A stretch of 64,000 nucleotides of DNA from an uncultured archaeon (GCA_963782915.1 CAWALK010000020.1:1-64000); one strand, 5' to 3'; positions 1 to 19,878 are shown, numbered from the stretch's first letter. Made by a program: numbers and translations. Notes: generated from the sequence alone by a model not told the origin.

Positions 1-216
1 TCACGAGCAGCGACTTAATAGAAGTACCCAAGAAAGATTCCGTTATCGCTACGTACTCATTGTTCCAACTTTTTGTTGGAATAAGGAGCGTAGGTATTCT
101 ATTTTTCCAGTCCTTGTTATGGCTGAGGGTTTTTGCTCTGGTTTGGTTTTATAACGTGCTTTTCTGATTGATTTTTGATTTTTCATTTAGTTGTTATCAA
201 TCTTTTTTGTTCTTTG

Positions 217-430
217 TGGGGACGGGATGCGTAGGAGTTTCCCCATCCCATCGGGGGTTTGTGGGGGCGGTTGGTTTTTTGGTTTAGGCTGTTTTTCTGT
301 TTGCGTTGGGATGGGGCAAGAGGCTTTTTTATCCCATCCGCTATGTTGAACTATGTTGGGTGGGATGGGATGAGGATGGGGAAGTATGTTAGGTTTCTAT
401 TTTGAGGGTTGTATAGCTGTTATGTTAGGG
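217..430. repeat. Cluster of GGGATG(GG)/CATCCC motifs in both orientations plus TATGTT(G/A) direct repeats; iteron/origin-like
   Basis: gacgggatg 221, ccccatcccatc 241, tgggatgggg 307, atcccatcc 331, tgggatgggatgaggatgggg 361; ctatgttg x2 at 341/351, tatgttagg at 385 and 421; non-coding. Confidence 0.5.
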
Positions 431-599
431 TTACCTGTAGTATCTTATTGTGAGAAATTGGCTAAAGAGGTACACTAATTATAGAATTGAAACGGTTAAG
501 GGGAGCTATTTACACAAGGCAAACTTAAGGGTACTGATCGACAGAACAAAACCTTTCTCTTTAATGAAGTAATAAAAAAAGTTGTAGAAGCAGGTTTGT

Positions 600-989
600 C
601 TACTTCTTAACGTAGATGTTTCCTGTTTGAACAGCAGTGAAACCGTTATTTGTGATTGTGAAGTAATCGTCTCTGGGGAAGTTAAAAATTTTATATGTGC
701 CTAGGAGAGTGGTTGAGTTTACTATGCTCCATGTGCCAGAATATGCACTAAATTGTCCTGTGCCATTTTCATAGAGAACTATGGTGTATCCTGTTCCGCT
801 TGAAGTCTGCTCGACATATGTGCCAGCCATACTTGACATAGTTGGTGTTCCACTTGAAAGAGGCGGTGTTCCATTTGAACCTAGGGAATAAAATGCAGCT
901 GCACTAACGATTATTACGATCAAAATAACCGGCAATATAATGTAAAATTTTTTCTTGCTCTTTTTTACAACTAACTCTAGATTGCTCAT
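600..989 (-). CDS. Hypothetical membrane-anchored/secreted protein
   Basis: 129 aa ORF; basic N-terminus, hydrophobic helix, then Ser/Thr/Gly-rich beta domain. Confidence 0.7.
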   Translation of the reverse strand: MSNLELVVKKSKKKFYIILPVILIVIIVSAAAFYSLGSNGTPPLSSGTPTMSSMAGTYVEQTSSGTGYTIVLYENGTGQFSAYSGTWSIVNSTTLLGTYKIFNFPRDDYFTITNNGFTAVQTGNIYVKK

Positions 990-1334
990 TTTTTGATTCC
1001 TCCAGAATGTTTTTTTATTGAATTGTTTACAAAAATTGGGCTAATGCGCTACTAGGAAACAAGCCTTTGCTGCATATTAACCTTTGCAGTTTAACAATTT
1101 CTGGTGAAAATTACCTCTTAGGTTGAATTTTGCCTTAAATTTGCCGCTTGAGCTAATTTGGATGGGCATTGTTATAATCAATCAAGAATGCGAATTAGAG
1201 TATGCCCTGGTTTGCATGGTTGTAGTTGGGCTTTGTCTCAACAGTAAGTTGCAGCAGCATTTTATTAACCCAAAAAGACAAAGAAAGAACTGGAGCTAAA
1301 ATGCTTCTATACTTTATAAGGGATAAGAAACAAA

Positions 1335-1610
1335 ATGCCTTTAAAAATTGACAAAAAGAACTGTAATGTCGCTCTTGAAGATGGTGTTATCTGTATTAAC
1401 GCTAACCCTGAACTTGAAAAGTCGAAGCCAAAGTCTCCGGAAAATACCTGTGAAATGATTTGCTTTAATTCTGTTGAGATTAAGCCCCATATTACTAGAG
1501 TATGTGGTAAGGAGCATCGGTATGGTAGGATTCAGGTTACGGTTGATAAGTCGCTTATTGGTGAAATTGTTGATTTTAAGGTATTAGTAAGACGGGTGAA
1601 GAAGGTCTGA
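1335..1610 (+). CDS. Small hypothetical protein, C-terminus resembles DUF2080/AbrB-like fold
   Basis: 91 aa; GRIQVTVDKSLIGEIVDFKV resembles the DUF2080 pattern (judged by eye). Confidence 0.5.
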   Translation: MPLKIDKKNCNVALEDGVICINANPELEKSKPKSPENTCEMICFNSVEIKPHITRVCGKEHRYGRIQVTVDKSLIGEIVDFKVLVRRVKKV

Positions 1611-1731
1611 AAAAATGTATATACAACTCTTCAAACCTTCAGTTTTTACTGCGGTTTCCTAGGCTGGTCCTTTTTACCGTTTAGTATTCATTTTGGCACT
1701 AGATTAGACAGTTCACAAATCGGTTAATCAG

Positions 1732-1756
1732 ATTAGGGGGATTCGATCCCTCTAAT
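1732..1756. other. Hairpin with T-loop-like 7-nt spacer (possible degenerate att-like site or terminator)
   Basis: ATTAGGGGG-ATTCGAT-CCCTCTAAT, 8/9 stem, between convergent genes. Confidence 0.3.
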
Positions 1757-1825
1757 GATGTAGATATCACCTGAATCCCCATTTCAGTGTAAAATCAGCC
1801 CTATTTTCATAGTGGATTATTTTGG

Positions 1826-2164
1826 TTAACCGGATTCTCGTTTGGTGGTTTTGCATTTTGTGCATCTAAAGAACGTAATTGACGCATGGATAGTTTCGTC
1901 TGCTGCTTCGACGGTCCAAGTTTCGCTTTCGGTGTTTCCGCATGTTTCACAGACCATGTGAATTGTCGAGAGCTGTCTAAGCGATGCTTCTTTGTTTTGG
2001 TCTATGACGGCAATTTCCGCCGTTTTGCCGAGTCGTAGGCTTATTTTTTTGTTGGGTTCTTTATGTTCGGTTGGTTTATGGTACTTGCATTTGGGGCATA
2101 TAGCTATAGAAGAGTCTTTTTTTGCTGTTTGAAGCATAGATCCGCATTTTGGGCAAAAGTCCAT
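1826..2164 (-). CDS. Transcription factor S (TFS/RpoM) paralog
   Basis: MDFCPKCGSML N-terminal Zn ribbon; C-terminal CETC..AADE..TFFRCTKC ribbon; start moved to ATG 2164. Confidence 0.85.
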   Translation of the reverse strand: MDFCPKCGSMLQTAKKDSSIAICPKCKYHKPTEHKEPNKKISLRLGKTAEIAVIDQNKEASLRQLSTIHMVCETCGNTESETWTVEAADETIHASITFFRCTKCKTTKRESG

Positions 2165-2355
2165 TTGATTCACTTGCTTGAAGAACTCACTAAAATGATT
2201 TTTATGGTTTACTACTTTCACTTCATAAACTGAATGTTCAATATTCGATTTAGTGCAACTAAATTCTCCATCCAAAGGATATGTCACCTGCTTATCCCCA
2301 ATTTTTAAGAATAGCTCAGCAAGGCATTCGTATAGCTTTCAGTTAAAACATGAAA

Positions 2356-2404
2356 TGGTGCAGGGGGTTGGATTCGAACCAAACTCACATTTTTTTATCG
2401 GAAA
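2356..2404 (-). repeat. tRNA-Leu 3'-end copy (att-like site) plus class A flank
   Basis: tggtgcagggggttggattcgaacc matches 10732-10756 at 24/25; next 24 nt are 18/24 identical to 4763-4786. Confidence 0.9.
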
Positions 2405-2455
2405 ACCTTGCTGTCTCCCTTAAGCAATATATATTCTATAGAAATTAAGTACGCT

Positions 2456-3637
2456 ATGCAGTTACCGCATCCCCCCTTCAGATGGCTTGTCTTAATTTCT
2501 TATATTCTAACGGGGGTGCTTTCTCAGGTGATCTGGATAACTTTTGCTCCAATAATGTCCATAACTGCACAAACATACGGTGTCTCACAAACTGATGTGG
2601 GATACTTATCCACAGTGTTCCCGTTAATTTTCGTTATCATATCCATACCCGTCGGTTACTTCATAGACTCTCGAGGCTTTCGAAAAGCCATTCTATTAGG
2701 CACTGGTTTTATGGCTGTTTTTGGCTTGCTAAGAGCTTTCTCACCTAACTTCATTTATTTGCTTATTTTTCAGGCACTTGCCGGTGTTAGCCAACCCTTC
2801 ATAATGAACAGTATATCAAAGCTTGTGAAAGGCTGGTTTCCGGAAAAAGAAACCGGGCTTGCAACTGGATTAGGCAGTCTTTCACTTTTTATAGGCATGA
2901 TAATTGGATTAATTCTCACACCCATACTTGTTGACGTGTCCAGTCTCAACGAGATATTATTGATTTATGGGGTTCTTTCAGTGGTTGTTCTTGTTGTCTT
3001 CTACTTCTTAGGTAAAGAACCTACTTTGGCAGTGCACGAGAAAGAGCTTGTTAAGTTGCCAACTTTATTTGGTGTTTTTAAAAACCGAAACATCATCTTG
3101 CTTTCCGCATTGTTCTTTATCGGTATAGGAGTTTTTACGGCTTTCACCACTTGGATAGAACCCACCTTGGGACTTCAAAATGTAAATCCAGAATCCGCCG
3201 GGCTACTTGGAGGTATAATGATTATTGGTGGAATAAGTGGGTCGCTTGTTATCCCCGCTTTATCTGACAAGGTTAAAACAAGAAAGAAACCCTTACTGAT
3301 TTCCTTAGCAATCTCCGGAATATTATGGTATGCTATAACCATCCTGACTGATGCTTTCTGGATTGGGTTACTGATTTTTTGGTTGGGCTTCTTCTTTATG
3401 GCACTACTACCCCTTGGGCTGGAGTTATCCGCTGAATCAGTAGAAAAGAAATATTTGGGTTCAGCAAACGCGTTGCTTTGGGAGTTCTCTCAGATAGGCT
3501 GCCTTGTGTTTATCGTTCTGTACGAGTTTATAGGCAATAGCCAATGCTGGACGTTTACGCTAATGTTTTCAGCTTTAATTACGATAGCTGCTGTTCCACT
3601 TGCGTTTTATATTAAAGAAAAGTCGTTTGTCAAGTGA
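2456..3637 (+). CDS. MFS transporter
   Basis: About 12 TM helices, motif A GYFIDSRGFRK; likely ATG at 2456. Confidence 0.9.
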   Translation: MQLPHPPFRWLVLISYILTGVLSQVIWITFAPIMSITAQTYGVSQTDVGYLSTVFPLIFVIISIPVGYFIDSRGFRKAILLGTGFMAVFGLLRAFSPNFIYLLIFQALAGVSQPFIMNSISKLVKGWFPEKETGLATGLGSLSLFIGMIIGLILTPILVDVSSLNEILLIYGVLSVVVLVVFYFLGKEPTLAVHEKELVKLPTLFGVFKNRNIILLSALFFIGIGVFTAFTTWIEPTLGLQNVNPESAGLLGGIMIIGGISGSLVIPALSDKVKTRKKPLLISLAISGILWYAITILTDAFWIGLLIFWLGFFFMALLPLGLELSAESVEKKYLGSANALLWEFSQIGCLVFIVLYEFIGNSQCWTFTLMFSALITIAAVPLAFYIKEKSFVK

Positions 3638-3677
3638 TTGGGAATCTACTTTTTGCAAGGTTGTTGATTTATAAGAT

Positions 3678-3719
3678 TGGTGCAGAAGGTGGGATTCGAA
3701 CCCCTAAAACGCTGTGGAG
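3678..3719 (-). repeat. tRNA-Leu 3'-end copy (att-like site) plus class B flank
   Basis: tggtgcagaaggtgggattcgaaccc is 24/26 to the tRNA; followed by ctaaaacgctgtggag, shared with the 9946 site. Confidence 0.9.
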
Positions 3720-3917
3720 AATTCACCCGTAAAATCCTCTTTCCTTAATCACATGGCGAACTCTACCATTTCTTAAATATTGAAAAATTGAAAAGTTTGG
3801 ACATGCCCGCATTAAATTCTGAAATAAAAGCAGCTTTAGCCGAAAACGAATAACCGTCTCATTACAGCATTTTCAAGCTACGCCTTCAAACCAATTTTAG
3901 AAGTATAAAATAATGTT

Positions 3918-4070
3918 TTACTTCTTTGAATTGTCTGCTTGAGCCTGCTTCGAACGATTGGCATTAGCTTGTTTCTGCCTCGCACTATTGGCAGCATTTG
4001 CTTTTTTCGCTATACTGCCTTTGTTTGGGGCGGCTGATGTTTTTCCTTCTGTATAATTTTGTTTACGCAA
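3918..4070 (-). CDS. Small basic hydrophilic protein (50 aa), absent from ORF track
   Basis: TTG start, MRKQNYTEGKTSAAPNKGSIAKKANAANSARQKQANANRSKQAQADNSKK*. Confidence 0.5.
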   Translation of the reverse strand: MRKQNYTEGKTSAAPNKGSIAKKANAANSARQKQANANRSKQAQADNSKK

Positions 4071-4244
4071 AATATTCGCCTAAATCATATAGCACTTTGT
4101 TCTTCTTAATCTGTCTTGAGTACCCAAAACATGTTTTTATCCACAGTGGAGTGCGCATTTGGTAAATGGTTATTGGCGGGAACATGATATTGAAAGAGTC
4201 TGCCGCTGATGTAATTAACTGCGCTTAAGGTTGTCTGAGGTAGC

Positions 4245-4691
4245 TTGGTGAAAAAAAGAGATCCGCATGAGGTTGAGTGTAGAAGTGATATTGACGAGTT
4301 TATTCGCCGTGCCCAAAGATGGAGTCCCCTCTACGCAAGACTGGTAAATACTTTAGCTAGGCTTCCTGAAGAGGTTTATCGGTTTACTTTGGAGAATGTT
4401 TCTTTCCATGCAGGTCAAAGTCAGACCTTGGAAGTCAAAGAATTAAGCAAGTCCTGCATGATAATTTTGAAGCGAACCGATTCAGAGTCTTTAATAGCAC
4501 ACGAAATAGCTCACGCCTACCTTGGGCACGCAAAAACTAAAAGCAGAACCAAAAACATAGAGGCAGACGCTGAGGTGTTAAGAAAGAATTGGGGTTTTAA
4601 GAAAAAAGAAATCTGCCCAAGTTATCCCCGATGGTGCCTTCAATGCCATAATCCCCACTGCTCCGAAAGCCAAGCGGGAAAACTTGGCTAA
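4245..4691 (+). CDS. Putative zinc metallopeptidase (HExxH) with Cys-rich tail
   Basis: AHEIAHAYLGH followed by EADA; C-terminal C-x6-C-x2-C-x4-C. Confidence 0.65.
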   Translation: MVKKRDPHEVECRSDIDEFIRRAQRWSPLYARLVNTLARLPEEVYRFTLENVSFHAGQSQTLEVKELSKSCMIILKRTDSESLIAHEIAHAYLGHAKTKSRTKNIEADAEVLRKNWGFKKKEICPSYPRWCLQCHNPHCSESQAGKLG

Positions 4692-4738
4692 TATGCAAAC
4701 TAGCACCCGTTAGGACCCCATACCTTTTATTTATTGAT

Positions 4739-4790
4739 TGGTGCAGGGGTGGGATTCGAACCACACTCAGATTTTCTTTCCCGAAAGAAA
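4739..4790 (-). repeat. tRNA-Leu 3'-end copy (att-like site) plus class A flank with 8-bp inverted repeat
   Basis: tggtgcaggggtgggattcgaacc (one G short of the tRNA); flank contains TTTCTTTC-CC-GAAAGAAA. Confidence 0.9.
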
Positions 4791-4847
4791 CTCTGGGCAA
4801 AGAAAGGGGTTGGTTGTTGGTTTCGTTGTTCATCTTATTGTTTCTCC

Positions 4848-4913
4848 GTAACAACTTATGTTACATTAGCTTAGTTATCGATAGACTGATGTAAATGTAA
4901 CGTAATATGTTAC
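4848..4913. promoter_or_regulatory. Two GTAAC-N7-GTTAC palindromic boxes
   Basis: 4848-4864 and 4897-4913, same 7-nt spacing, just upstream of ORF 4930. Confidence 0.55.
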
Positions 4914-4929
4914 GCTATGAGGGTTTAGA

Positions 4930-5118
4930 GTGCATAAAGAACTTTTGAGCGATAAAGAACGGTCAATGCTAAAACAATACTTAGAAACAGGAGAGAAGGA
5001 TGAGCACTTTAGAATTTTAAAGATGAGAATTAAGAAAAGTTATCCTGCTATTAGCCTAGATTTTCAATTAATCACTCAGATTATCAATAAACTGGAAGAA
5101 TCTTCAAAGTCTAAATAG
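4930..5118 (+). CDS. Small helical protein, possible DNA-binding regulator
   Basis: 62 aa charged amphipathic ORF directly after the operator-like boxes. Confidence 0.55.
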   Translation: MHKELLSDKERSMLKQYLETGEKDEHFRILKMRIKKSYPAISLDFQLITQIINKLEESSKSK

Positions 5119-5141
5119 GGAAGTCTCAGTCATCTGCCTTT

Positions 5142-5549
5142 TCAGTATTTACTTGTCACATTATTAGGAGTGCTCGGTAATTGTATTGTCTGTTTCCTCT
5201 TAGCATTCCAATCGATTAAACGAATACCTAGCAAACCACCAAGAATAATACCTAAGAATACCGCAAATTCAAAGGTTAAGTCCAACTCGACAGCTATTAA
5301 AACTGTGCTTACAAGTCCTATTACTAGCAGCATAAATGACGTAAATAGAATACTATGCTTTTTCAAGACAGTATTCTCTTTAAGGTTCATCATGGCACTA
5401 AATACGCCGATTGCAGATAAACACCCCATAGAGAGTACAAAATATTGATTAGTTGTCAAGAGTTTTTCAACAGCAAGAATAAGTCCAACCAATAAGATAG
5501 GAAGCACTACCGCATTACTGGATGCCCATAATTTAGTTCGAGTTTTCAT
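5142..5549 (-). CDS. Hypothetical 4-TM membrane protein
   Basis: 135 aa, four hydrophobic segments. Confidence 0.65.
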   Translation of the reverse strand: MKTRTKLWASSNAVVLPILLVGLILAVEKLLTTNQYFVLSMGCLSAIGVFSAMMNLKENTVLKKHSILFTSFMLLVIGLVSTVLIAVELDLTFEFAVFLGIILGGLLGIRLIDWNAKRKQTIQLPSTPNNVTSKY

Positions 5550-5842
5550 TTGATTTACCTATAATATTTAGCTGATTTTTGCTTAAGTAATTTGTTATTA
5601 AAACGCTTTCTAAATAGTTCTTAGTTAATTCGATAGCTCAAAGTTATGAATAACCGAGAAACTTCCACATACGGCTGTTTTCATCATATTTCATTTTAGA
5701 ATTTACTTGTTAGCTTTTAGATACCTTTTTTCATAAGAGTGGGTATACCCCTGTATCAATCACCGAGTTTGAGGGTATAAAGTACTTTAGAAAACTGAAG
5801 CTTTAGCAGGCTTTTACACCCCCTGCTTGTTTGTTTGTATAA

Positions 5843-5895
5843 TGGTGCAGGGGGTGGATTTGAACCCACGAATACCTGCGCGATAAGGTCCTAAG
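5843..5895 (-). repeat. Long tRNA-Leu 3'-half copy reaching the anticodon loop (att-like)
   Basis: tggtgcagggggtggatttgaacccacgaatacctgcgcgataaggtcctaag aligns to 10732-10785 and ends at the anticodon loop. Confidence 0.92.
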
Positions 5896-5938
5896 TCAAA
5901 AACTGGCTTCCTTAGCTTTTGAAAGGGTTCTTTGGGAG

Positions 5939-8365
5939 TCATGTAATTAGACGTTGCAAGATGATGTATGCTGCCTTTTTATCTAATGGTTCGTTCCCGT
6001 TACCGCATTTAGGCGAGTATATGCATGATGGGCAACCTTCTTTGCATTCACAGGTTTCAATCAACTCGAGCGTTTTTTCCAGTAGCGGTTTTATGTTTGA
6101 GTAGAGGTTTTCTGAAATGCCAATTCCGCCCTCAAAACCATCGTAAATAAAAATCGTGGGTTTTCCCGTGTCCGCGTGTATGGCGGTTGACATTCCGCCT
6201 ATATCCCATCGGTCACACATTGCAAACATTGGCGCCATCGCAATAATGGCATGTTCAAGAGCATGCAAGCCGCCGTCGAAATTCAAGCCTTTCTCTTCTA
6301 TTTCTTCTCTGATTTGTTCAGGAACAATAAACCACAATCCCACCGTTGAGAAAGATGAAGAGGGCAAATCAAGCGTATGTTTTTTGATGACTACATCGTT
6401 GGATTTTACCACATAAGACGGATAGTTTTCAGTGATTGTTAATTCACCCATAGCAGTTTTGAGGTCTTTTTGTGTTTCCTGCAATGTTTTCTTGATTGCT
6501 ACTTCGACGGTTTTTTGGGTTTCAGTATAATAGTTGGTGCTCTCTTGCCGAACCGTTGCCGTCAAATTGTTGACATCCAGTTCTAGTGAGCGGTAAGTTT
6601 CGCCTTGATGTAGCAGAATTGCTCCCTCATGGGTTTCTTCATAAGCCTTGTTTAAGGGAAGTGTTTCAAGAATATGCCCGTTGCAAAGTACATTCACTGT
6701 TTTTCCGCTAATACTTTCAATATTAACAACTCTAGTTGCCCTTTCCAGCCCCGAATAAGTCCAACCTTGAGCCGCTTTTTTCAGAAGGTTCTTTTGTGCA
6801 AGGGCTTGAACGCTTTCTTTGAAGAGCTCTGGAAAATATTTTTGGTCAGACTCTGTAAGTGGCAACTCGTCAGCTGCGCACATAATGTGGCCTGAAGTGA
6901 TTTGATGATTATGCAGGTCAATGATTGCTTGCTCATGTGGTCTATCAAAGAAGTCCTGTGGGTGCTTCATGAAATATTGGTCAAGAGGATTTTGGAAAGC
7001 AACCAAAGTTACGGTTGAATCGCTTTTGCTTCTGCCTGCACGACCAGCTTGCTGCCACGTAGATATGACTGTTCCAGGATAACCCGAAATTATCACTGCA
7101 TCCAAAGAACCTATATCGATGCCAAGCTCCAATGCGTTTGTTGAAACCAAACCGATTAAGTCTTTGGTTTTTAGACGATTCTCTATGTCACGTCGTTCTT
7201 GAGGAAGGTAACCTGCCCTGTAGGCAGTTACTGAACCGTATAACTTAGGGTTTCTTCGTTTTAGGTCTTCTTTAGTCCATCTTGTTATAAGCTCAGCCAT
7301 TTGTCGTGAGGTTGTAAAGCAGAGGGTTTGCAAGTTTTTCATTACGCTTACAGTTAGCAAGTCTTTGGTTTCTTGATGGGTTGAGCGGCGAATTGTTTTT
7401 TCTGGGTTAATAAAGGGTGGATTCCAAAATACGAATGATTTTTTGCCTCTTGGGGAGCCATCGTTTGAAACTATTTCAAATTCTTTTCCAGTTAATTTCT
7501 TTGCGTGCTCCTGAGGATTAGCTATAGTTGCTGATGCGAGTATGATTTGGGGGTCTGCATGGTAAAAATTGCAGATTCTTAGCAGTCTCCTTAGAAGCAT
7601 GGCTACGTTTGAGCCAAAAACGCCTCGGTAAACATGCGCTTCATCAATTATGAGGTATTTTAGGTTTTGAAAAAAAGACCGCCAGAGCTTATGCCATGGA
7701 AGGTACAGATGCAAACCATAAGGGTTAGTCAAAATTATTCTGGAATTTTCCCGTATAAATTGGCGCTGCTCTTTTGGTGTGTCGCCATCGTAAACGTTAG
7801 AATCTGCTTTGATACCCGTACCTTTCTCAATTTCCTGTAAAACTTTAAGCTGATCATTTGTTAGAGCTTTCGAGGGATAAATATAGAGTGCAGTTGCTTT
7901 TTTATCGTTATTGAGGGCATCAAAAACGGGAATATTAAACGCCAAAGTTTTTCCCGAAGCCGTGTGGGTAGTAATAATCACATTTTTGCCTTGCCGTGCT
8001 TTGTTTATGGCTTCTGCTTGATGGGAATAAAATTTAATTTTTTTATTTTGTAAATAGGCGCTTATGTTTTCTGGAAGAGGTTTTTCTAACTCTCCAAAAC
8101 ATGCTTCTTGTGCGGGAATTTCTTGAGTGTGTGCAATAGGGGTTTGTTGGGTTTGCACTCTTGGCTGTGTGGTTTCTTTCTTCGGGAGGTTTACTGGTTT
8201 AGGTTTTAGCGGATTATTGATTGGGGTAGGTCTGAAATTGTTTGGTTTGCTGCCTTGTGTGAGAAAGGTTCCGCATTCTTTGCAGAATAAGCTCTGGGCA
8301 TATTCCTGATGAGTGTGGTTTTTGCCACATTTTTTGCAGTAGTAAGAAATTGGCAACTTTTTCAA
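5939..8365 (-). CDS. DEAD/DEAH-box helicase with DUF1998 (Hrq1/YprA/SftH family), N-terminal Zn ribbon
   Basis: TASGKT, DEAH, SAT, QQAGRAGR motifs; C-terminal CECKEGCPSC. Confidence 0.92.
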   Translation of the reverse strand: MKKLPISYYCKKCGKNHTHQEYAQSLFCKECGTFLTQGSKPNNFRPTPINNPLKPKPVNLPKKETTQPRVQTQQTPIAHTQEIPAQEACFGELEKPLPENISAYLQNKKIKFYSHQAEAINKARQGKNVIITTHTASGKTLAFNIPVFDALNNDKKATALYIYPSKALTNDQLKVLQEIEKGTGIKADSNVYDGDTPKEQRQFIRENSRIILTNPYGLHLYLPWHKLWRSFFQNLKYLIIDEAHVYRGVFGSNVAMLLRRLLRICNFYHADPQIILASATIANPQEHAKKLTGKEFEIVSNDGSPRGKKSFVFWNPPFINPEKTIRRSTHQETKDLLTVSVMKNLQTLCFTTSRQMAELITRWTKEDLKRRNPKLYGSVTAYRAGYLPQERRDIENRLKTKDLIGLVSTNALELGIDIGSLDAVIISGYPGTVISTWQQAGRAGRSKSDSTVTLVAFQNPLDQYFMKHPQDFFDRPHEQAIIDLHNHQITSGHIMCAADELPLTESDQKYFPELFKESVQALAQKNLLKKAAQGWTYSGLERATRVVNIESISGKTVNVLCNGHILETLPLNKAYEETHEGAILLHQGETYRSLELDVNNLTATVRQESTNYYTETQKTVEVAIKKTLQETQKDLKTAMGELTITENYPSYVVKSNDVVIKKHTLDLPSSSFSTVGLWFIVPEQIREEIEEKGLNFDGGLHALEHAIIAMAPMFAMCDRWDIGGMSTAIHADTGKPTIFIYDGFEGGIGISENLYSNIKPLLEKTLELIETCECKEGCPSCIYSPKCGNGNEPLDKKAAYIILQRLIT

Positions 8366-8468
8366 GCTACACCTACTTATGTTATTATAAAAGCACTATT
8401 GCAGAAATCCGCTTTTTGTGCATTCAAGTACTGGAAGGCAAATGCTCCACAATGTCCTGTTTGTTTCT

Positions 8469-8497
8469 AAATTGTCAAAGATGGAATTCGAATCCAT
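8469..8497 (-). repeat. Decayed tRNA-Leu T-arm-like site
   Basis: ATGGA-ATTCGAA-TCCAT: same 7-nt loop as the tRNA T-arm (GTGGG-ATTCGAA-CCCAC) with two compensatory pair changes; weak acceptor-stem similarity upstream. Confidence 0.5.
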
Positions 8498-8681
8498 TTT
8501 CTGGTTTCGAGTGTCACTCGCAAACACTTCTTTTCTTTATGCAGATGACTAAAAAGCGAAACACATTGGAACAAAAAAGCAGCCGCCAAATACTTTATTA
8601 TCACCTCATCTTTAATCGCTGGTATTATAATGAAAACACCGTTACCTGAAGGAGGATTAAATCACGGAATTCTTTGACCTT

Positions 8682-9425
8682 ATGAGCATCTCCCACCGCT
8701 ATATGGAATTACTCGATCCTACTACGCCTGAAAAAATTATACAGCTCGGCAAACTGCTTAAGTTGAAAAAAGGCAGTCGAGTTATCGATTTAGGTTGTGG
8801 TTGTGCCCAACCTCTCACTCTCTGGGCTGAGGAATTCGGTATTACCGGTATTGGCATCGATATATCCAGGGATTTCTGCGACCGGGCTAGAGATAAGCTG
8901 GCCAAGAGAGGGTTGTCAGGCCAAATCGAAATCGTATGCTCTCCCGGGACTGACTACGTGTTCGAAGAGGGGGCTTTCGATGCCGCAACGTGTATTGGGG
9001 CAACTTTTGTTTTTGGCGGCTTCCAGCAGACAATCCAGGCGATGAAGCGGGCTGTGCATCAGAATGGCCGCCTAGGCATTGGTGAAACTCATTGGCTTAG
9101 CAATCAAGTACATCCGCAATATGCCCAAAAACAGGCAACTACATTTACGGAACCAGAACTGGCTCAATTTACCCGAAATGAAGGTTTTGAACTTGAATAT
9201 ATTATCCGTTCCAGCCGCGATGACTGGGACAGGTATGTTTCGGATAGTTGGTATGGGCTGATACGTTGGCTTGAGGAAAACCCCAACCATCCTGATTATG
9301 AACAGGTATTCAAATACTTCCGTTCTGACCAGGATGATTATTTAGAGTTCCAAAGTCGACATATGGGCTGGGCTATGTACTGTCTTGCCCCTCTGAAATC
9401 CCATTTGCCCGGCAATCGATTATAA
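8682..9425 (+). CDS. Class I SAM-dependent methyltransferase (YjhP-like)
   Basis: VIDLGCGC motif I, GIDIS, FDAATCIGA. Confidence 0.9.
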   Translation: MSISHRYMELLDPTTPEKIIQLGKLLKLKKGSRVIDLGCGCAQPLTLWAEEFGITGIGIDISRDFCDRARDKLAKRGLSGQIEIVCSPGTDYVFEEGAFDAATCIGATFVFGGFQQTIQAMKRAVHQNGRLGIGETHWLSNQVHPQYAQKQATTFTEPELAQFTRNEGFELEYIIRSSRDDWDRYVSDSWYGLIRWLEENPNHPDYEQVFKYFRSDQDDYLEFQSRHMGWAMYCLAPLKSHLPGNRL

Positions 9426-9802
9426 AATACGAAATTTGATCATGAGCTACCTTTTTTTGGGCAGGTTGCTTTTTTTATCAGTGTTTTATCAAGCGAACAA
9501 GCTTAATCATCAAAAAAACCTTTTGGGTTTAGTGGGCAGACGGTTTCTTGTGAATTCTTTTCTAAACTCAACATGCCTCCACATCCACACCGCGATGGAT
9601 TCAACATACAACTATGTTGAGTGTGTGGAGAAAAACAGGTATCCCACACCGAAACAGGCGCCAAAAAACGTTGCAAACCCAAAAACCAATCACCCCCAGT
9701 TGCAGTCTTGTGGAAAATTAAAAACCCCCACACCCACATAAAGACAAAAAAGCTGAATCGCCAAGAAAGCCCATGTTCTAAATGCACCAAAACCCTTCAG
9801 GA

Positions 9803-9935
9803 TCTGCTTGCAGAAACCACCGCAACCAGCCTGCAACGCTTATTCACGTCTGAACCAAAAAAACAGCCTATAACACAAAGCGTTGGTTGTTGTTGAAATA
9901 AGAGGGGGTCTTGGAGCAACAACCAATATAGAAAA
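9803..9935 (+). repeat. Dispersed intergenic element, copy A
   Basis: TCTGCTTGC..CAACCAGCC-N53-GGTTGTTGTTG..AGCAACAACC; homologous to 39046-39178 (-) and 11075-11190 (-). Confidence 0.8.
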
Positions 9936-9945
9936 CAGTAAGGGT

Positions 9946-9983
9946 TCGTGCAGGAGTAGCTTTGAGTTCCTAAAGCGCTGGAG
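9946..9983 (-). repeat. Decayed tRNA-Leu 3'-end copy plus class B flank
   Basis: tcgtgcaggagtagctttgagttcctaaagcgctggag aligns with the 3678 site including the non-tRNA flank cctaaaRcgctg. Confidence 0.6.
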
Positions 9984-10054
9984 GTACCACCGCACTCTGA
10001 TAGACTAATAAGATTGCTTGCATAGACGTAGAATAGTCTTTAAGGAGTGTTTTT

Positions 10055-10351
10055 ATGCCCATAACAATCGGTGTGCTATTTAGAAGAATTATCAAAGATT
10101 TACAAACAAAAGACAACAACCCAAACAGCATTCTGAATAACCCAAAAAGCGACTTATACAACCCAAACTACGACATCAACAACCCAAACAGCACAATCAA
10201 CAACCAACACAGCAGCATTAACGATGCCTCAAACACTGAAAAGAACAAGGAACAGCGAAGGGATGCTCTGCGAGAACTCCTCAGAATGTATCTGTCCGAC
10301 TATTTGTCTGAAGAACAAGCACAGAAACTTGTCGAAGAATATATTCCTTAA
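10055..10351 (+). CDS. Hypothetical Asn-rich protein with 7-aa NNPNS-type repeats
   Basis: NNPNSIL NNPKSDL YNPNYDI NNPNSTI NNQHSSI. Confidence 0.55.
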   Translation: MPITIGVLFRRIIKDLQTKDNNPNSILNNPKSDLYNPNYDINNPNSTINNQHSSINDASNTEKNKEQRRDALRELLRMYLSDYLSEEQAQKLVEEYIP

Positions 10352-10367
10352 TCTCTGGGTGGTTTTT

Positions 10368-10700
10368 TTGGAGTCAGATTTTATACGGGTTGCTAGTGCC
10401 TCAGAGATACAAGAAGGCAAAATGAAAAAGGTCACCTTAGACGGCAACGAGATCCTTATCGCTAATGTCGCGGGGAAATATTATGCTGTAAGTGGTATGT
10501 GTACTCATTTTGGGGGCGACCTGTCCGAGGGCGTCTTGGAAGGAAAAGTTGTTACTTGCCCAAATCATAAGGCAAGCTTTGATGTCACAACTGGCAAGGT
10601 GGTTTCGCCTCCCACTGAAGCATTAGGGCATCCTGACATCGAGGATTTGCCCACTTTTTTATTGAAAGTTGCCGATAATGATGTTTTTGTGAAGCCATAG
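10368..10700 (+). CDS. Rieske [2Fe-2S] ferredoxin
   Basis: CTH and CPNH boxes; TTG start at 10368. Confidence 0.9.
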   Translation: MESDFIRVASASEIQEGKMKKVTLDGNEILIANVAGKYYAVSGMCTHFGGDLSEGVLEGKVVTCPNHKASFDVTTGKVVSPPTEALGHPDIEDLPTFLLKVADNDVFVKP

Positions 10701-10731
10701 GTTAGTTGAAAACAAGAAAATTTAGTTATAA

Positions 10732-10819
10732 TGGTGCAGGGGGTGGGATTCGAACCCACGAACGCCTACGCGATAGGGTCCTAAGCCCTACTCCGTTGAC
10801 CTGGCTTGGAGACCCCTGC
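10732..10819 (-). tRNA. tRNA-Leu(TAG)
   Basis: GCAGGGG/CCCCTGC acceptor stem, CTTAGGA anticodon loop, long variable arm, GGTTCGAATCC, encoded CCA. Confidence 0.97.
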
Positions 10820-10985
10820 ACACTACTGCGCGATAGGAGAATGCTGTGCCTCCTTTAATATTTATTTGCCCCCAAAACCGCTTGGTTATGCGTTGAATCC
10901 CCATGTTTTTTCATGTTGATGGCGCTGCTTGACCGTAACCTCTTTATTATAAGTCGCATTTGTTTTGGAACAAGACTTAGAATTT

Positions 10986-11062
10986 GCCTTCGTAGCCTAG
11001 CCCGGTGGGGCGTTACCTTGGTAAGGTAATGGTCGCGGGTCCAAATCCCGCCGAAGGCTCCA
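10986..11062 (+). tRNA. tRNA-Thr(GGT)
   Basis: GCCTTCG/CGAAGGC acceptor stem, TTACC-TTGGTAA-GGTAA anticodon arm, T-arm GCGGG-TCCAAAT-CCCGC, encoded CCA. Confidence 0.95.
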
Positions 11063-11074
11063 ATTCTTCTAATC

Positions 11075-11190
11075 AGTTTTTTATTAGTTGAAGAAGGCAG
11101 AGAGCCCATATTCCCTTCTTCTTCCTGTGGACTTTGCTGGCGGTTGCTTCTCTGTGTTCACATCTGGTTTGGGTTGCTGGCTGGTTGTGG
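11075..11190 (-). repeat. Dispersed intergenic element, copy C (covariant stem)
   Basis: CCACAACCAGCCAGCAACCCAAACCA nearly identical to copy B; 53 nt after CAACCAGCC comes GGAAGAAGAAG, pairing with CCTTCTTC. Confidence 0.75.
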
Positions 11191-11276
11191 GTTGAGCCTC
11201 AAGTTATAATTTGATAATTCAACTTTTTTCAAACATGGAACAAAAATCTTCGGGGGCACCCGATATTCAAGAGCAG

Positions 11277-11310
11277 GGTCACGAGTCTCCAAATCCAGTC
11301 GAAAGCTACA
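11277..11310 (+). repeat. Decayed tRNA-Thr 3'-end copy (att-like)
   Basis: ggtcacgagtctccaaatccagtcgaaagctaca vs tRNA ggtcgcgggtccaaatcccgccgaaggctcca: 26/32 plus a 2-nt insertion. Confidence 0.7.
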
Positions 11311-11555
11311 ACTTTGCTGGTTCATTGGAAAGGCTTGATTTTTAGCCATTGTGGTTACGGTGATTAAAACGCCAGAATAATTCAAGATACCTTAAAAAAC
11401 GTTTTTATGCAATGAAGGGCGAGTGTTTTTAGTTAAAATTTGCTCCTTTCCAATACTGATAACGAATGAAATCATTCATTTTTTCCTTGATTGATTTTGG
11501 GGTTCTGGAGATGGTTGCAGAACTTCCGTTTCTGAATTAAGAGGCGAAGGAAATC

Positions 11556-12788
11556 ATGATAAAAAATAAATCCAACTCGAATTCTAAGAAAAAGAGAATT
11601 GCGTACTTGAGCACTTATCCGCCAAGAGAGTGCGGAATTGCCACTTTTGTAAAAGATCTTGTGGATTCCATTGAAGGGCTCCAGACGTTTAAGCCTCCGG
11701 TGCTGATTGCAGTTAACGATAAAGAGGTCTATGACTATAACAAACGGGTTAAGTGGCTAATCGAGCGAGATGAAGCTGAGTCGTATCTGGAAGTCGCAGA
11801 ACAAATAAACGCTTCAGACATTGATGTCGTCAACCTTCAGCACGAGTTCGGGTTGTTCGGAGGAGAGTATGGCGAGTATATTCTGCAGTTTTTAGACGAA
11901 ATTGAGAAACCGGTTGTAACTACTTTACATACGGTTCTTGAACACTTTGACCCAGAGCCCCTTGCTGTACTCAAAAAAGTCGTCTCTAAGAGTGCGGCAG
12001 TGGTAGTGATCGCAAATGTAGCACTCAAGGTTCTGGCAGATCAAGGTGTTATCCCCAGAAGAAAAGCTGTCATTCCACATGGATGCCCCCAAATTAACTT
12101 CATATCAAGACACAGGGCAAAAGAGGGCTTAGGGCTTAAAGGCCGTTTTGTGTTGACAACTTTCGGCCTGTTGAGCAGAAATAAAGGGATCGAGTATGCA
12201 ATTCAGGCTTTGCCCCAAGCTCTCGAAAAGCAACCAAATTTAGTTTATCTTGTAATCGGTGAAACTCACCCCCAGGTAAGAAAAAAAGAGGGCGAGAGTT
12301 ATCGAAATAAATTAATAAAACTCGTTAAAGAGCTCAACTTGGAAGAGCATGTTCTGTTCCAAAATCGTTTTCTCACCAAGCGAGAACTAATAAAATTCCT
12401 CCAAGCTACTGACATCTACATTACACCATACGTTTCAGCCAACCAAATTAGCAGCGGAACACTTGCGTATGCCCTCGGTGCAGGAAGCGCAATAATATCC
12501 ACGCCATATCTCCATGCACAGGAAAACTTGGCAGATAACCGTGGACTGTTTTCAGAATTCAGGAATCCTCGTTCGATAGCTGGCTGTATAGAAAAGCTGT
12601 TAGATGACGAGGTAAGAGAGGCTATGGAAAGAAAAAACTATGAGTATAGTAGGCGATTTACTTGGTCGAATGTGGCTCAGGAATACGCAAAAGTGTTTAA
12701 TCTAGTATCAGCTGAACCAAAGACTGCAAGAATTAAGGTTCGGGAGAAGGCGTTTGGAATTACAGTTTCTGAGCCTTTTATCCATTAG
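11556..12788 (+). CDS. Glycosyltransferase family 4
   Basis: STYPPRECGIATF, QHEFGLFGG, SSGTLAYA motifs. Confidence 0.92.
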   Translation: MIKNKSNSNSKKKRIAYLSTYPPRECGIATFVKDLVDSIEGLQTFKPPVLIAVNDKEVYDYNKRVKWLIERDEAESYLEVAEQINASDIDVVNLQHEFGLFGGEYGEYILQFLDEIEKPVVTTLHTVLEHFDPEPLAVLKKVVSKSAAVVVIANVALKVLADQGVIPRRKAVIPHGCPQINFISRHRAKEGLGLKGRFVLTTFGLLSRNKGIEYAIQALPQALEKQPNLVYLVIGETHPQVRKKEGESYRNKLIKLVKELNLEEHVLFQNRFLTKRELIKFLQATDIYITPYVSANQISSGTLAYALGAGSAIISTPYLHAQENLADNRGLFSEFRNPRSIAGCIEKLLDDEVREAMERKNYEYSRRFTWSNVAQEYAKVFNLVSAEPKTARIKVREKAFGITVSEPFIH

Positions 12789-12942
12789 AAGAGTTGTTCA
12801 CTGGTTTCATAGATTGTGGAAAAGCCCCGTTTCAATCGATAATGTTTGCTATGAACTTGGTTTATTCAAGAGTTGATTAACTTTCCTTTCTTTGGGTTTC
12901 TTTTAATTTGAGCCGTACATACATAAGCGTTAAAAGCTTGAC

Positions 12943-13131
12943 ATGCAAAGAGCTTGCGGAAAGAGAGAGAGTGGAACCATGTTAGATAACTTCAAAGACC
13001 AAGTGACAATGGAAGAGCAGCCATGTATGCAATGTAAAAAGTGCATGCCTGTTGAGTGGTTAAGTGCCAATTGCCCTTGTGTAATGCTGCGTATGTGGGA
13101 ACATTATATGATGCACACAAAGTACAAATGA
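12943..13131 (+). CDS. Small Cys-rich hypothetical protein
   Basis: 62 aa with CxxCxxC and CPC; start uncertain. Confidence 0.35.
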   Translation: MQRACGKRESGTMLDNFKDQVTMEEQPCMQCKKCMPVEWLSANCPCVMLRMWEHYMMHTKYK

Positions 13132-13336
13132 AAGGATACCGGCTTGCCCCCCGATTATGCTTGCACTTGGGTTACCGATGGTTAAAAAAAGAATACCCAC
13201 TTGAATGGACTTTAACTCTTAAGCGAAAATGTCAGTGGCTTCATTATTTATTGTCCAATTTCCCCCGTAAACAACTTTGAATTTCACCCTAATCAAAAGC
13301 TCTATTTTCATCGGTTTGATGAGGTTGGATTTATCT

Positions 13337-13378
13337 TTGGTAGGTAATGGTCGCGTGTCTAAATCCCGCCGGAAGCTC
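13337..13378 (+). repeat. tRNA-Thr 3'-half copy from the anticodon loop (att-like)
   Basis: ttggtaggtaatggtcgcgtgtctaaatcccgccggaagctc aligns to 11018-11060. Confidence 0.88.
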
Positions 13379-13455
13379 ATAAATTACTTCTTGGCTGTTT
13401 TTTGTATTTGGGTTTTCCCTAAACCTATTAAACAACAGAAAAGAAAGTAGAGTTA

Positions 13456-14088: not shown

Positions 14089-14115
14089 CGTAAATGCATG
14101 TTTGGGTTAGGCTAC

Positions 14116-14248: not shown

Positions 14249-14268
14249 GCATTGGTTGGCGATAACGG

Positions 14269-19873: not shown

Positions 19874-19878
19874 TTTTT

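What the first reader, a model, noticed from the sequence alone, without database searches (positions are those of the whole stretch)
1732..10819. Integron-like array of 1-2 gene cassettes separated by tRNA-Leu 3'-end copies
Seen: downstream of tRNA-Leu(TAG) are same-orientation copies of its 3' end at 9946 (decayed), 8469 (decayed), 5843, 4739, 3678, 2356 and possibly 1732. All are intergenic. The units between them are small and functionally unrelated: Rieske + Asn-rich ORF (~0.75 kb), methyltransferase (~1.45 kb), DUF1998 helicase (~2.6 kb), membrane protein + regulator (~1.05 kb), HExxH protein + small basic protein (~1.0 kb), MFS (~1.3 kb), TFS paralog (~0.6 kb). No integrase is recognisable in any unit or elsewhere in the window. 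Established: tyrosine integrases duplicate tRNA 3' ends on integration, and tandem islands occur, but these usually are larger and carry integrase. Inference: non-autonomous gene cassettes captured in series at the tRNA by a recombinase acting in trans, i.e. a tRNA-anchored gene-capture platform functionally like an integron. The alternative is a graveyard of eroded islands.
Basis: partly seen in the sequence, partly recalled or inferred. Interest (0 to 1): 0.9.

Follow-up and report, generated by a model that had tools for sequence, protein, structure and literature searches.

The report
Stacked mobile-element remnants beside tRNA-Leu
Downstream of a leucine tRNA gene in a Bathyarchaeia genome lies a stack of small gene packets, each bounded by a copy of the tRNA's tail; it looks like the worn-down record of repeated mobile-element insertions at one hotspot, not a new integron-like machine.

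Summary
Four strong copies of the tRNA-Leu(TAG) 3' end (2356, 3678, 4739, 5843) and two half-decayed ones (1732, 8469) lie in the tRNA's orientation; 9946 is weak. No integrase is detectable in the window.

The copies begin in the T-loop (25-28 nt) or at the anticodon loop (53 nt), positions I recall as usual for tyrosine-integrase att sites. Many carry a conserved ~45-nt arm motif.

A tyrosine integrase family sits directly beside tRNA-Leu(TAG) in 22 of 46 loci, 42 of them titled Bathyarchaeia, Bathyarchaeota or Bathycorpusculum. Relatives and metagenome contigs show it intact, frameshifted, halved, or as 35-88-aa stumps.

Same-genus genomes carry 0-6 extra sites. Unit content varies, breakpoints fall at the sites, and the newest unit lies next to the tRNA. 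G000 units recur in G014 in another order, at 83-87% identity against 65-77% for core genes.

Best reading (0.62): serial site-specific integration followed by loss of integrases, leaving CIME-like remnants.

Not excluded (0.22): the integrase-less units are still moved in trans, as a cassette pool.

It is not an integron. There is no IntI or attC, and the genes point both ways.

Arrays with about 1-kb units are common here and were not found described in three full-text searches. Novelty: new member of a known kind.

The parts
10732..10819 (-). Intact tRNA-Leu(TAG), the integration target (attB side; 3' end at 10732). It is the only tRNA-Leu(TAG) that ARAGORN finds in the genome.
9946..9995 (-). 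Weak, decayed att copy with an arm-like motif at 9986; left boundary of the Asn-rich/Rieske unit.
   Evidence: Not found by the profile. Positional homology with the G001 site upstream of the same gene. Motif seen.
8469..8540 (-). Half-core (T-loop part) plus conserved P-arm motif; left boundary of the methyltransferase unit.
   Evidence: nhmmer E 0.017 genome-wide and 0.0016 in the 320-kb set. Intact core at this site in a contig of run X1.
5843..5895 (-). 53-nt copy of the tRNA 3' part, starting exactly at the anticodon loop; left boundary of the helicase unit.
   Evidence: G014 has the homologous fragment beside the same helicase.
4690..4766 (-). P'-arm motif (4690-4734) followed by a 28-nt core copy (4739-4766) and a 'type-2' right flank shared with site 2356.
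   Evidence: P' profile built from 22 integrase-bearing elements: E 0.0018 and 1.3e-5. Core. Shared flank (D11).
3678..3754 (-). 26-nt core copy plus full P-arm motif; left boundary of the HExxH unit.
   Evidence: nhmmer E 5e-12 genome-wide
2356..2404 (-). 25-nt core copy (24 of 25 identical) plus 'type-2' flank; left boundary of the MFS unit.
1725..1792 (-). Half-core plus P-arm motif; left boundary of the TFS-paralogue unit.
   Evidence: nhmmer E 0.005 genome-wide and 0.0005 in the 320-kb set
1826..2287 (-). Zn-ribbon RPB9/TFS-like paralogue. A further core-less P-arm-like motif lies at about 2275-2310.
   Evidence: PF02150 E 3.7e-8; motif read
2408..3637 (+). MFS transporter. The unit is absent from the second array version on contig C24 and from 119 other genomes of the genus.
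4245..4691 (+). HExxH protein (only sub-threshold SprT/M78/Lit-like hits). The unit is 85.9% identical to G014 and 95.8% to C24.
5142..5549 (-). Small membrane protein with no family hit. The unit is absent from the C24 version.
5939..8365 (-). DEAD/DEAH helicase with MZB (DUF1998) and Hrq1-type winged-helix domains.
   Evidence: only generic helicase hits in PADLOC
8682..9425 (+). SAM-dependent methyltransferase, followed by dispersed repeats at 9567-9751 and 9803-9935.
10055..10700 (+). Asn-rich ORF (10055-10351) and Rieske protein (ORF 10224-10700): the unit nearest the tRNA.
   Evidence: A contig of run X3 joins about 9518 to the tRNA 3' end without this unit.
10986..13371 (+). Mirror situation on the other side: tRNA-Thr(GGT), a glycosyltransferase (11556-12788) and a 30-nt tRNA-Thr 3' fragment (13342-13371).

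Best explanation
The region is an integration hotspot. Small integrative elements of Bathyarchaeia carry a tyrosine integrase that recombines an element site (attP) with the 3' part of tRNA-Leu(TAG). The crossover lies in the T-loop, or for another element type in the anticodon loop. Each insertion rebuilds the tRNA from the element's own copy and pushes the old 3' end, together with all earlier insertions, one step away. The result is a stack of same-orientation tRNA tails with the newest unit next to the tRNA. Elements that keep a working integrase can leave again; those that lose it are trapped. Internal deletions then shrink the trapped elements to one or two retained genes plus their end sequences. 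These are CIME-like remnants, and the process matches the 'gene capture' described for archaea. In this genome all seven or so units have reached that stage, and the array is probably static. Shown here: the att anatomy, the cognate integrase family and its target, variable occupancy with breakpoints at the sites, and the decay series. Inferred: that every unit of this window once carried its own integrase, and that deletion rather than trans-capture produced the small size.
For: (1) Anatomy. The copies start in the T-loop (25-28 nt) or exactly at the anticodon loop (53 nt) and all lie in the tRNA's orientation. A profile from other genomes finds the sites; 33 of 33 non-tRNA sites in 15 loci share the orientation of their tRNA. 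(2) Integrase. G005 and G017 encode intact integrases (55% identical to each other) immediately beside the tRNA-Leu(TAG) 3' end. In genome contigs, 46 loci encode this family; tRNA-Leu(TAG) follows on the opposite strand in 22, Leu(CAG) in 5, His, Cys, Arg or Ser in 7, and no tRNA was found in 12. (3) Decay series. Intact: G005, G017, L126. Frameshifted, in a 2.7-kb element: L089. C-terminal half only, in a 0.9-kb unit: L178. Stumps of 35-88 aa abutting a site or a tRNA: G005, G012, G023, L135, L142, L146, L169. (4) Window units match parts of larger units elsewhere. The HExxH module opens a 7.1-kb G014 unit that holds an integrase remnant, and homology stops right after the ORF. The Asn-rich gene lies just inside the most distal site of G001's 11-kb array, in a 0.56-kb unit bounded by a second site. 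A 0.3-kb G021 unit equals the first 0.3 kb of a 1.06-kb G012 unit. (5) Serial order. Blocks shared between genomes end at sites, and genomes differ by extra units on the tRNA side (G012/G021, G001/G010, G002/G023/G010). (6) Horizontal origin. Units shared with G014 are 83-87% identical, core flanks 65-77%. (7) Literature. Tandem integration at one locus and integrase loss after integration are on record for archaea (PMC8371274 and PMC6563490, passages read). The integration, decay to CIME, accretion sequence is described for bacteria (PMC5704250, passage read).
Against: No integrase trace of either family exists in any unit of this window. Overall, only 4 of 35 units in the genus set hold an integrase-family hit, as do 2 of 44 units (8 of 81 loci) in the metagenome/IMG-VR set. 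So for about 90% of units prior possession of an integrase is inferred, not seen. The att cores, which are neutral once displaced, are still recognisable, so the integrases must have been physically deleted rather than mutated away. In 13 of 15 genomes the sequence abutting the intact tRNA lacks the P'-arm motif of the integrase-bearing elements. Deletions would therefore have had to end within a few bases of an essential tRNA, unless these units came from other element subfamilies. Units are strikingly small: median 1.3 kb in the genus set and 0.9 kb in metagenome contigs. Their cargo is host-like (histone, Alba, TFS, nitroreductase, Rieske) rather than element backbone; these labels for relatives' genes are read from their sequences and were not run against a library.
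Confidence: 0.62

Rival explanations
1. Trans-mobilised cassette pool. The integrase-less units, each carrying one core-plus-arm site, are excised by recombination between neighbouring cores and re-inserted at the tRNA by integrases of co-resident or incoming elements. The array would then behave functionally like an integron, without being one.
For: About 90% of units have no integrase trace. A conserved 45-nt arm accompanies unrelated cargo at 21 of 35 sites in the genus set and 117 of 126 sites in the metagenome/IMG-VR loci, the latter having been seeded with that motif. Integrase-less units abut the intact tRNA without a P' motif in most genomes. The same single-gene unit, a nitroreductase-like gene, is bounded by sites in G002 and G013 in different array contexts. 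The order of the HExxH and helicase units is reversed between G000 and G014. Two units with the same unusual 'type-2' flank and the best-preserved cores (MFS, membrane protein) are present in the window but absent from the 90-96% identical second version on C24.
Against: No intact integrase of the family exists in this 93.5%-complete assembly, only fragments on C25, C11, C15, C23, C12 and C9. The C24 junctions lie in arm motifs and leave no intact core, as short-repeat deletion would and core-by-core excision would not. No circle-type joints appeared in the contigs laid, but contigs cannot show rare forms. Every intermediate of integrase decay is seen. Order differences are equally explained by independent acquisitions.
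Confidence: 0.22
2. A true integron or integron-derived platform in an archaeon.
For: Serial small units of unrelated function separated by a repeated site.
Against: No integrase at the platform or anywhere on contig C20. The sites are direct copies of a tRNA 3' end, not attC-type imperfect palindromes. The one candidate pairing, arm with acceptor strand, shows no compensatory change. Genes point both ways.
Confidence: 0.01
3. Mixed origin. Some units came in with integrases of other families or architectures, for example SSV-type 'suicidal' integrases that are split by integration, or a recombinase encoded elsewhere. The family-A decay story would then cover only part of the array.
For: The 53-nt anticodon-loop copy at 5843 and the 'type-2' flanks at 2356 and 4739 differ from the T-loop/P-arm type. 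On the tRNA-Thr side, G014's 7.1-kb element has perfect 45-nt repeats, an SSV-like integrase ORF starting beside the distal fragment (PF16795, E 7e-5, below the cut-off) and an ORF reading through the tRNA at the other end. Arm-bearing sites also occur beside Asn and Ala tRNAs, with Gln and Arg tRNAs further off on two contigs.
Against: No PF16795 hit and no homologue of the G014 protein in the window. No recombinase of any kind is seen in the helicase, MFS or membrane units.
Confidence: 0.12
4. Assembly artefact, or local duplication unrelated to recombination.
For: The window starts at a contig end. Contig C24 is chimeric and carries a second version of part of the array.
Against: Equivalent arrays occur on long or single-contig genomes of 12 relatives and on 27 of 81 metagenome/IMG-VR loci. 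The copies have defined ends at tRNA structural positions.
Confidence: 0.02

Closest known systems
Tandem accretion of integrative elements and CIMEs (cis-mobilisable elements), e.g. ICESt1-related islands of Streptococcus (PMC5704250, passage read; the primary papers Pavlovic 2004 and Bellanger 2011 were seen only as references there)
   Same: Site-specific integration into the 3' end of a target gene. Decay to elements that keep att sites but lack integration genes. Later integration of another element at the site that holds the gene end, giving arrays with internal att sites.
   Different: The host is archaeal. The units are far smaller (median about 1 kb) and more numerous (7 or more sites in 9 kb). 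No conjugation genes are present. Cis- or trans-mobilisation was not tested.
Archaeal integrated elements at tRNA genes and 'gene capture' (She et al. 2001, 2002, 2004: seen only as references, otherwise recalled; reviews PMC8371274 and PMC6563490, passages read)
   Same: Partial tRNA repeats flank integrated elements. Tandem integration at one locus occurs. Integrase loss after integration traps the genes.
   Different: The classical capture model rests on SSV-type integrases that split on integration. The family at tRNA-Leu here is unsplit and sits next to the tRNA. The lineage is Bathyarchaeia. A conserved 45-nt arm motif is present. Arrays of this density were not mentioned in the passages read.
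Integrons (IntI, attI, attC cassettes)
   Same: An ordered stack of small, functionally unrelated units separated by a repeated recombination site, with the newest unit at the anchor.
   Different: No platform integrase, no attC, mixed gene orientation, and no common promoter logic. The sites are tRNA-derived direct repeats.
Composite SCC/psi-SCC arrays at rlmH(orfX) in staphylococci and IMEX arrays at dif (recalled, no call)
   Same: Several units sharing one chromosomal att site, many without their own recombinase, separated by repeated att copies.
   Different: Different recombinases and targets, and bacterial hosts. In those systems recombinase action in trans is experimentally shown; here it is not.

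Membership tests
Integron | IntI-type tyrosine recombinase gene adjacent to the insertion point | tested here: not met
   PF00589 search of the whole genome: 4 weak hits, none on contig C20. Family HMM on six frames of window 1-16000: best E 2.2.
Integron | attC sites (imperfect inverted repeats recognised as folded single strands) at cassette ends | tested here: not met
   The boundaries are direct copies of the tRNA 3' end plus a conserved arm. The candidate arm/acceptor pairing shows no compensatory change across 16 sites (read by eye).
Integron | Mostly promoterless, co-oriented cassettes read from a platform promoter | tested here: not met
   Unit genes lie on both strands: TFS -, MFS +, HExxH +, membrane -, helicase -, methyltransferase +, Rieske +.
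Tandem site-specific integration at a tRNA gene (tyrosine integrase) | Direct repeats equal to the 3' part of the tRNA, in the same orientation, downstream of an intact tRNA | tested here: met
Tandem site-specific integration at a tRNA gene (tyrosine integrase) | Repeat block begins at the T-loop or anticodon loop (sublocation rule of Williams 2002: recalled, and cited in the PMC6563490 passage) | tested here: met
   The 25-28-nt copies begin 2 nt before the T-loop, and the 53-nt copy begins at the first base of the anticodon loop.
Tandem site-specific integration at a tRNA gene (tyrosine integrase) | A cognate integrase encoded next to the same tRNA in occupied sites | tested here: met
   Met in relatives: G005, G017 and 22 of 46 genome-contig loci. 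Not met in the window itself.
Tandem site-specific integration at a tRNA gene (tyrosine integrase) | Variable occupancy among relatives with breakpoints at the att copies | tested here: met
   0 to 6 extra sites in 14 same-genus loci. Shared blocks end at sites. A contig of run X3 lacks the unit nearest the tRNA.
CIME-like decayed element | Flanked by att sites but lacking integration genes | tested here: met
   All window units. The HExxH unit also keeps a P' arm.
CIME-like decayed element | Derived from an autonomous element by deletion | tested here: inconclusive
   Supported for the HExxH unit (G014 comparison) and by the decay series in other loci. No trace in the other window units.
CIME-like decayed element | Mobilised in cis or in trans by a neighbouring element's integrase | not testable with these tools
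   Only contigs of distant relatives were available.
SSV-type 'suicidal' integrase capture | Integrase gene split by integration into parts at the two element ends | tested here: not met
   No PF16795 hit on C20 and no homologue of the G014 SSV-like ORF in the window. The pattern is suggested only for G014's tRNA-Thr element.

The most novel reading that the evidence does not exclude
In Bathyarchaeia, tRNA T-loop att sites with a conserved 45-nt arm mark a pool of 0.3-3-kb, integrase-less one- or two-gene cassettes. Integrases of a widespread element family excise and re-insert them in trans. Several tRNA genes (Leu, Thr, Asn, Ala and others) would then serve as integron-like gene-shuffling platforms that trade host-type genes between species.
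Probability: 0.2. Interest if true: 0.8.

Novelty: new member of a known kind. Interest (0 to 1): 0.42.

Why it matters
It identifies a tyrosine-integrase family of Bathyarchaeia, its main target (tRNA-Leu(TAG)) and a sequence signature (core plus 45-nt arm) that finds its insertion scars. They form unusually dense arrays that hold species-specific accessory genes. That gives a practical handle on horizontal gene flow in an uncultured, globally abundant archaeal class, and a concrete set of substrates (integrase, intact tRNA site, integrase-less unit with both arms) for testing whether trapped remnants can still move. If they can, the arrays would be a second, independently evolved cassette system. 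If not, this is a clean natural record of capture and erosion of mobile elements.

Tried and rejected
1. Mini-tRNA or hairpin idea. The arm motif contains a near-complement of the acceptor 3' strand, but across 16 full sites the variants do not compensate. Rejected.

2. Arm as coding sequence of a split SSV-type integrase. The spacer length varies and a stop occurs in the alignment, and there is no PF16795 hit in the window. Rejected.

3. P-arm versus P'-arm asymmetry: 21 against 4 of 35 sites, with cross-controls at 0. I first read this as proof that the right ends are truncated. It is weakened because the P' profile, built from tRNA-Leu(TAG) elements, finds 0 of 81 metagenome/IMG-VR loci, even where integrase stumps abut a tRNA (L142, L146, L178). 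P' is therefore subfamily-specific, and the asymmetry is inconclusive.

4. Integrase in IMG/VR: only a 31-aa remnant at a contig end, uninformative. The arm pattern in IMG/VR gave one contig.

5. 'Type-2' flank of sites 2356 and 4739: not found elsewhere in the genome or in any fetched locus. The one weak hit (L070) is another tRNA-Leu-like gene.

6. Sequencing runs: no run holds more than 7% of the sampled words. Laid contigs come from relatives at 88-95% identity. Parts without cover (MFS, membrane and Asn/Rieske units) are no evidence. The X6 joint 4992 to 10728 has only 21 letters on its shorter side and is disregarded. No circle-type joints appeared, but contigs cannot show rare forms.

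7. PADLOC gave only generic helicase-domain hits (DruE, SngC, BrxH, DrmA) and a methyltransferase hit. No defence system is claimed.

9. Source tRNA of the half-cores at 8469 and 1732: no convincing alternative tRNA. The best ungapped matches are 17-18 of 30-34.

10. Whether C24 and C20 are two haplotypes or a duplication within one chromosome could not be resolved.

Supplementary files of the papers were not consulted; the tables of PMC6563490 and PMC8371274 may list comparable arrays.

12. No structure, complex or Rfam job was run, since none bore on the question.

Full report
THE OBSERVATION

The window is the first 64 kb of contig C20 of a 3.28-Mb, 25-contig assembly (93.5% complete, 2.35% contamination). 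tRNA-Leu(TAG) (10732-10819, minus strand) and tRNA-Thr(GGT) (10986-11062, plus strand) form a divergent pair.

Local alignment of the tRNA against the whole window finds four same-orientation copies of its 3' end: 2356-2380, 3678-3703, 4739-4766 and 5843-5895. With up to 3 mismatches the 25-nt core occurs three times in the window, against none in 100 shuffles.

The short copies begin 2 nt before the T-loop. The 53-nt copy begins at the first base of the anticodon loop. From memory (Williams 2002, also cited in a passage read), these are the two usual places for tyrosine-integrase crossover in tRNA genes.

The three 'decayed' copies needed outside evidence:
- In relatives, the sequence just inside each short copy carries a conserved motif about 45 nt long. 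I call it the P arm.
- A profile built only from 7 sites of other genomes was run over the whole genome. It recovered 3676-3754 (E 5e-12), 1738-1792 (E 0.005) and 8481-8538 (E 0.017) on the same strand.
- A metagenome contig of a relative (run X1) has an intact 26-nt core at the 8469 site.
- The 9946 copy is not found by the profile. It only sits where G001 has a clear site upstream of the same Asn-rich gene.

All sites lie between the long ORFs. No integrase is detectable:
- PF00589 and PF16795 have no hit on C20.
- An HMM of the cognate integrase family scores at best E 2.2 on the six frames of window 1-16000.
- The same HMM finds 20-45-aa remnants in relatives.

WHO MAKES SUCH SITES

Two same-genus genomes (G005, G017) encode intact tyrosine integrases, 55% identical to each other. 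Each gene reads towards the 3' end of tRNA-Leu(TAG) and stops 70-240 nt short of it.

A scan of one genome per prokaryote species found 46 loci of this family; 42 are in records titled Bathyarchaeia, Bathyarchaeota or Bathycorpusculum. The tRNA found next to the integrase:

| tRNA next to the integrase | Loci (of 46) |
|---|---|
| tRNA-Leu(TAG), opposite strand, directly downstream | 22 |
| tRNA-Leu(CAG) | 5 |
| His, Cys, Arg or Ser | 7 |
| none found by ARAGORN | 12 |

So integrase-bearing elements that target exactly this tRNA are common in the lineage. The present assembly holds only fragments of the family, on C25, C11, C15, C23, C12 and C9. It also lacks a Xer-sized hit, so mobile DNA may have been lost in binning.

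WHAT RELATIVES SHOW

I fetched 20 kb downstream of tRNA-Leu(TAG) from 14 same-genus genomes.
- The profile finds 0 to 6 extra sites per genome: none in G007, G019 and G017; 6 in G012; 5 in G021. All 33 lie in the orientation of their tRNA.
- With two hand-added sites this gives 35 units in 12 loci. Median size is 1,322 bp, and 20 of 35 are at most 1.5 kb.
- Blocks shared between genomes end at the sites, and genomes differ by extra units on the tRNA side. For example, the unit next to the tRNA in G012 is the second unit in G021, and the same holds for G001/G010 and G002/G023/G010. That is the signature of serial insertion at the tRNA.
- The conserved chromosomal flank beyond the arrays (clusters c2-c1-c0-c16-c3-c6-c7) lies, in this assembly, on contig C24.

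G014 shares the TFS, HExxH, helicase, methyltransferase and Asn-rich modules with the window. TFS and the Asn-rich module are 71-75% identical; the others are 83-87%. Core genes next door are only 65-77% identical. The order differs: in G014 the HExxH module is nearer the tRNA than the helicase unit, whereas in the window it is farther. The units therefore moved between lineages after speciation and were acquired, or rearranged, independently.

EROSION OR CASSETTES?

For erosion:
- Every stage of integrase loss is seen in other loci:
  - intact: G005, G017, L126;
  - frameshifted, in a 2.7-kb element: L089;
  - only the C-terminal half, in a 0.9-kb unit next to tRNA-Ala: L178;
  - stumps of 35-88 aa abutting a site or a tRNA: G005 (in a 265-bp unit), G012, G023, L135, L142, L146, L169.
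- The window's 1.06-kb HExxH unit keeps both end motifs. In G014 the same module opens a 7.1-kb unit that contains an integrase remnant, and homology stops immediately after the ORF.
- A 0.3-kb unit of G021 equals the first 0.3 kb of a 1.06-kb unit of G012.
- Integrase loss after integration and tandem integration are on record for archaea (PMC8371274 and PMC6563490, passages read).
- The sequence of integration, decay to a CIME, then accretion of the next element is the standard account of such tandems in bacteria (PMC5704250, passage read).

For cassettes moved in trans:
- About 90% of units carry no integrase trace: 4 of 35 hold one in the genus set, and 2 of 44 in metagenome contigs.
- Their cargo is host-like rather than element backbone (the labels for relatives' genes are my reading of the sequences).
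- A nitroreductase-like single-gene unit is bounded by sites in two species, in different contexts.
- In 13 of 15 genomes the sequence abutting the intact tRNA lacks the P' motif of the integrase-bearing elements.

The last point is weaker than it looks. The P' profile also misses loci where integrase stumps abut other tRNAs.

A SECOND VERSION OF THE ARRAY IN THE SAME ASSEMBLY

Contig C24 is a chimera. Its first 5.8 kb has 65-75% G+C, and it joins archaeal DNA inside the helicase gene. It carries the distal chromosomal flank, a further site (C24:9958-9988) with two more units, and then TFS (89.7% identical), HExxH (95.8%) and the 3' part of the helicase (92.7%). It lacks window 110-1822, the MFS unit and the membrane-protein unit.

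The two units that are missing there share an unusual right flank, have the best-preserved cores, and were not found elsewhere. The MFS unit's DNA matches 0 of 119 other genomes of the genus.

The C24 junctions lie inside arm motifs and leave no intact core. That is what deletion between short repeats would leave, not core-by-core excision. Whether C24 and C20 are two haplotypes or two parts of one longer array could not be settled.

HOW WIDESPREAD

In the 81 loci returned:
- There are 126 profile sites, 123 of them in the seeded orientation.
- 27 loci hold two or more sites.
- The 44 units have a median of 910 bp.
- 8 loci have integrase-family hits.
- Sites also lie close beside tRNA-Asn, Ala and Leu(CAG)/(GAG), with Gln and Arg tRNAs further off on two contigs.

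In this genome a second array sits beside an intron-containing tRNA-Leu on C12. A 30-nt tRNA-Thr fragment at 13342 bounds a glycosyltransferase unit on the other side of the divergent pair.

COMPARISON WITH KNOWN SYSTEMS

It works like tandem accretion of integrative elements with decay to CIME-like remnants, and like archaeal 'gene capture'. It is not an integron: there is no platform integrase and no attC, and the genes are of mixed orientation (see the membership table).

Three full-text searches and the passages read turned up no description of such dense arrays, of this integrase family's target, or of the arm motif in Bathyarchaeia. Supplementary tables were not seen.

VERDICT

The mechanism is most likely ordinary in kind: serial site-specific integration, then loss of integrases and shrinkage (0.62).

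A still-active, trans-driven cassette pool is not excluded (about 0.2) and is directly testable.

Interest is moderate: a new member of a known kind, with an unusually compact and widespread form.

Noticed in passing
window 201-390, 9567-9751, 9803-9935, 11077-11190: Four short dispersed repeats (about 115-190 bp) with many copies at 72-93% identity on most contigs of the genome; MITE-like. The ORFs listed at 9436-9896 lie in two of them and are probably spurious.
   Followed up: partly
window 11062-14088: The tRNA-Thr(GGT) side mirrors the Leu side. A glycosyltransferase (11556-12788; 87% identical to G014's copy, against 65% for the next gene) lies between the tRNA and a 30-nt tRNA-Thr 3' fragment at 13342-13371. 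Just beyond it lies a CAT-family acetyltransferase gene (13456-14088; PF00302, E 1e-25). G013 and G014 have further Thr fragments of 36-45 nt.
   Followed up: partly
G000 contig C24:1-24000 (outside the window): Chimeric contig: bases 1-5843 have 65-75% G+C and join archaeal DNA inside a helicase gene. The archaeal part carries a second, 90-96% identical version of the distal array that lacks three segments of the window, plus the conserved chromosomal flank at 16677-22628.
   Followed up: yes
G000 contig C12:384800-396700 (outside the window): A second array in the same genome: four same-orientation sites (384861, 389354, 390615, 393184) and an integrase N-terminal fragment (392831-393112). 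They lie beside an intron-containing tRNA-Leu (anticodon loop reads UAA) that ARAGORN misses.
   Followed up: partly
L040 (G014) 1423-8675: A 7.1-kb element at tRNA-Thr with perfect 45-nt repeats. It has an SSV-like integrase ORF (PF16795, E 7e-5, below the cut-off) beginning beside the distal repeat, an ORF reading through the tRNA at the other end (as if the gene had been split by integration), and ABC-3C-type genes (DUF2326, CTD10, HNH).
   Followed up: partly
window 8469-8500 and 1725-1760: The half-cores keep inverted repeats that differ from the tRNA-Leu T stem: ATGGA/TCCAT at 8469, which changes both sides of two pairs, and a 9-bp near-palindrome at 1732. No other tRNA of the genome matches convincingly (17-18 of 30-34). 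Unexplained.
   Followed up: partly
G000 C19:112414-112459; C12:218381-218428; C18:206515-206546; C23:177355-177374; C24:154700-154741: Other tRNA fragments in the genome: Thr(GGT) 46 nt at 100% identity on another contig; Pro(TGG) 49 nt about 0.7 kb from its tRNA; Met; Pro(GGG); and a 42-nt 5' fragment of Gly(TCC) beside a PF16795 hit. Small att-bounded segments are general in this genome.
   Followed up: no
window 10114-10234: Five 21-nt tandem repeats inside the Asn-rich ORF, encoding NNPNS-like repeats.
   Followed up: no
window 5958-8118 vs C20:141043-143204: The array helicase has a paralogue elsewhere on the same contig (73.6% nucleotide identity over 2.2 kb).
   Followed up: no
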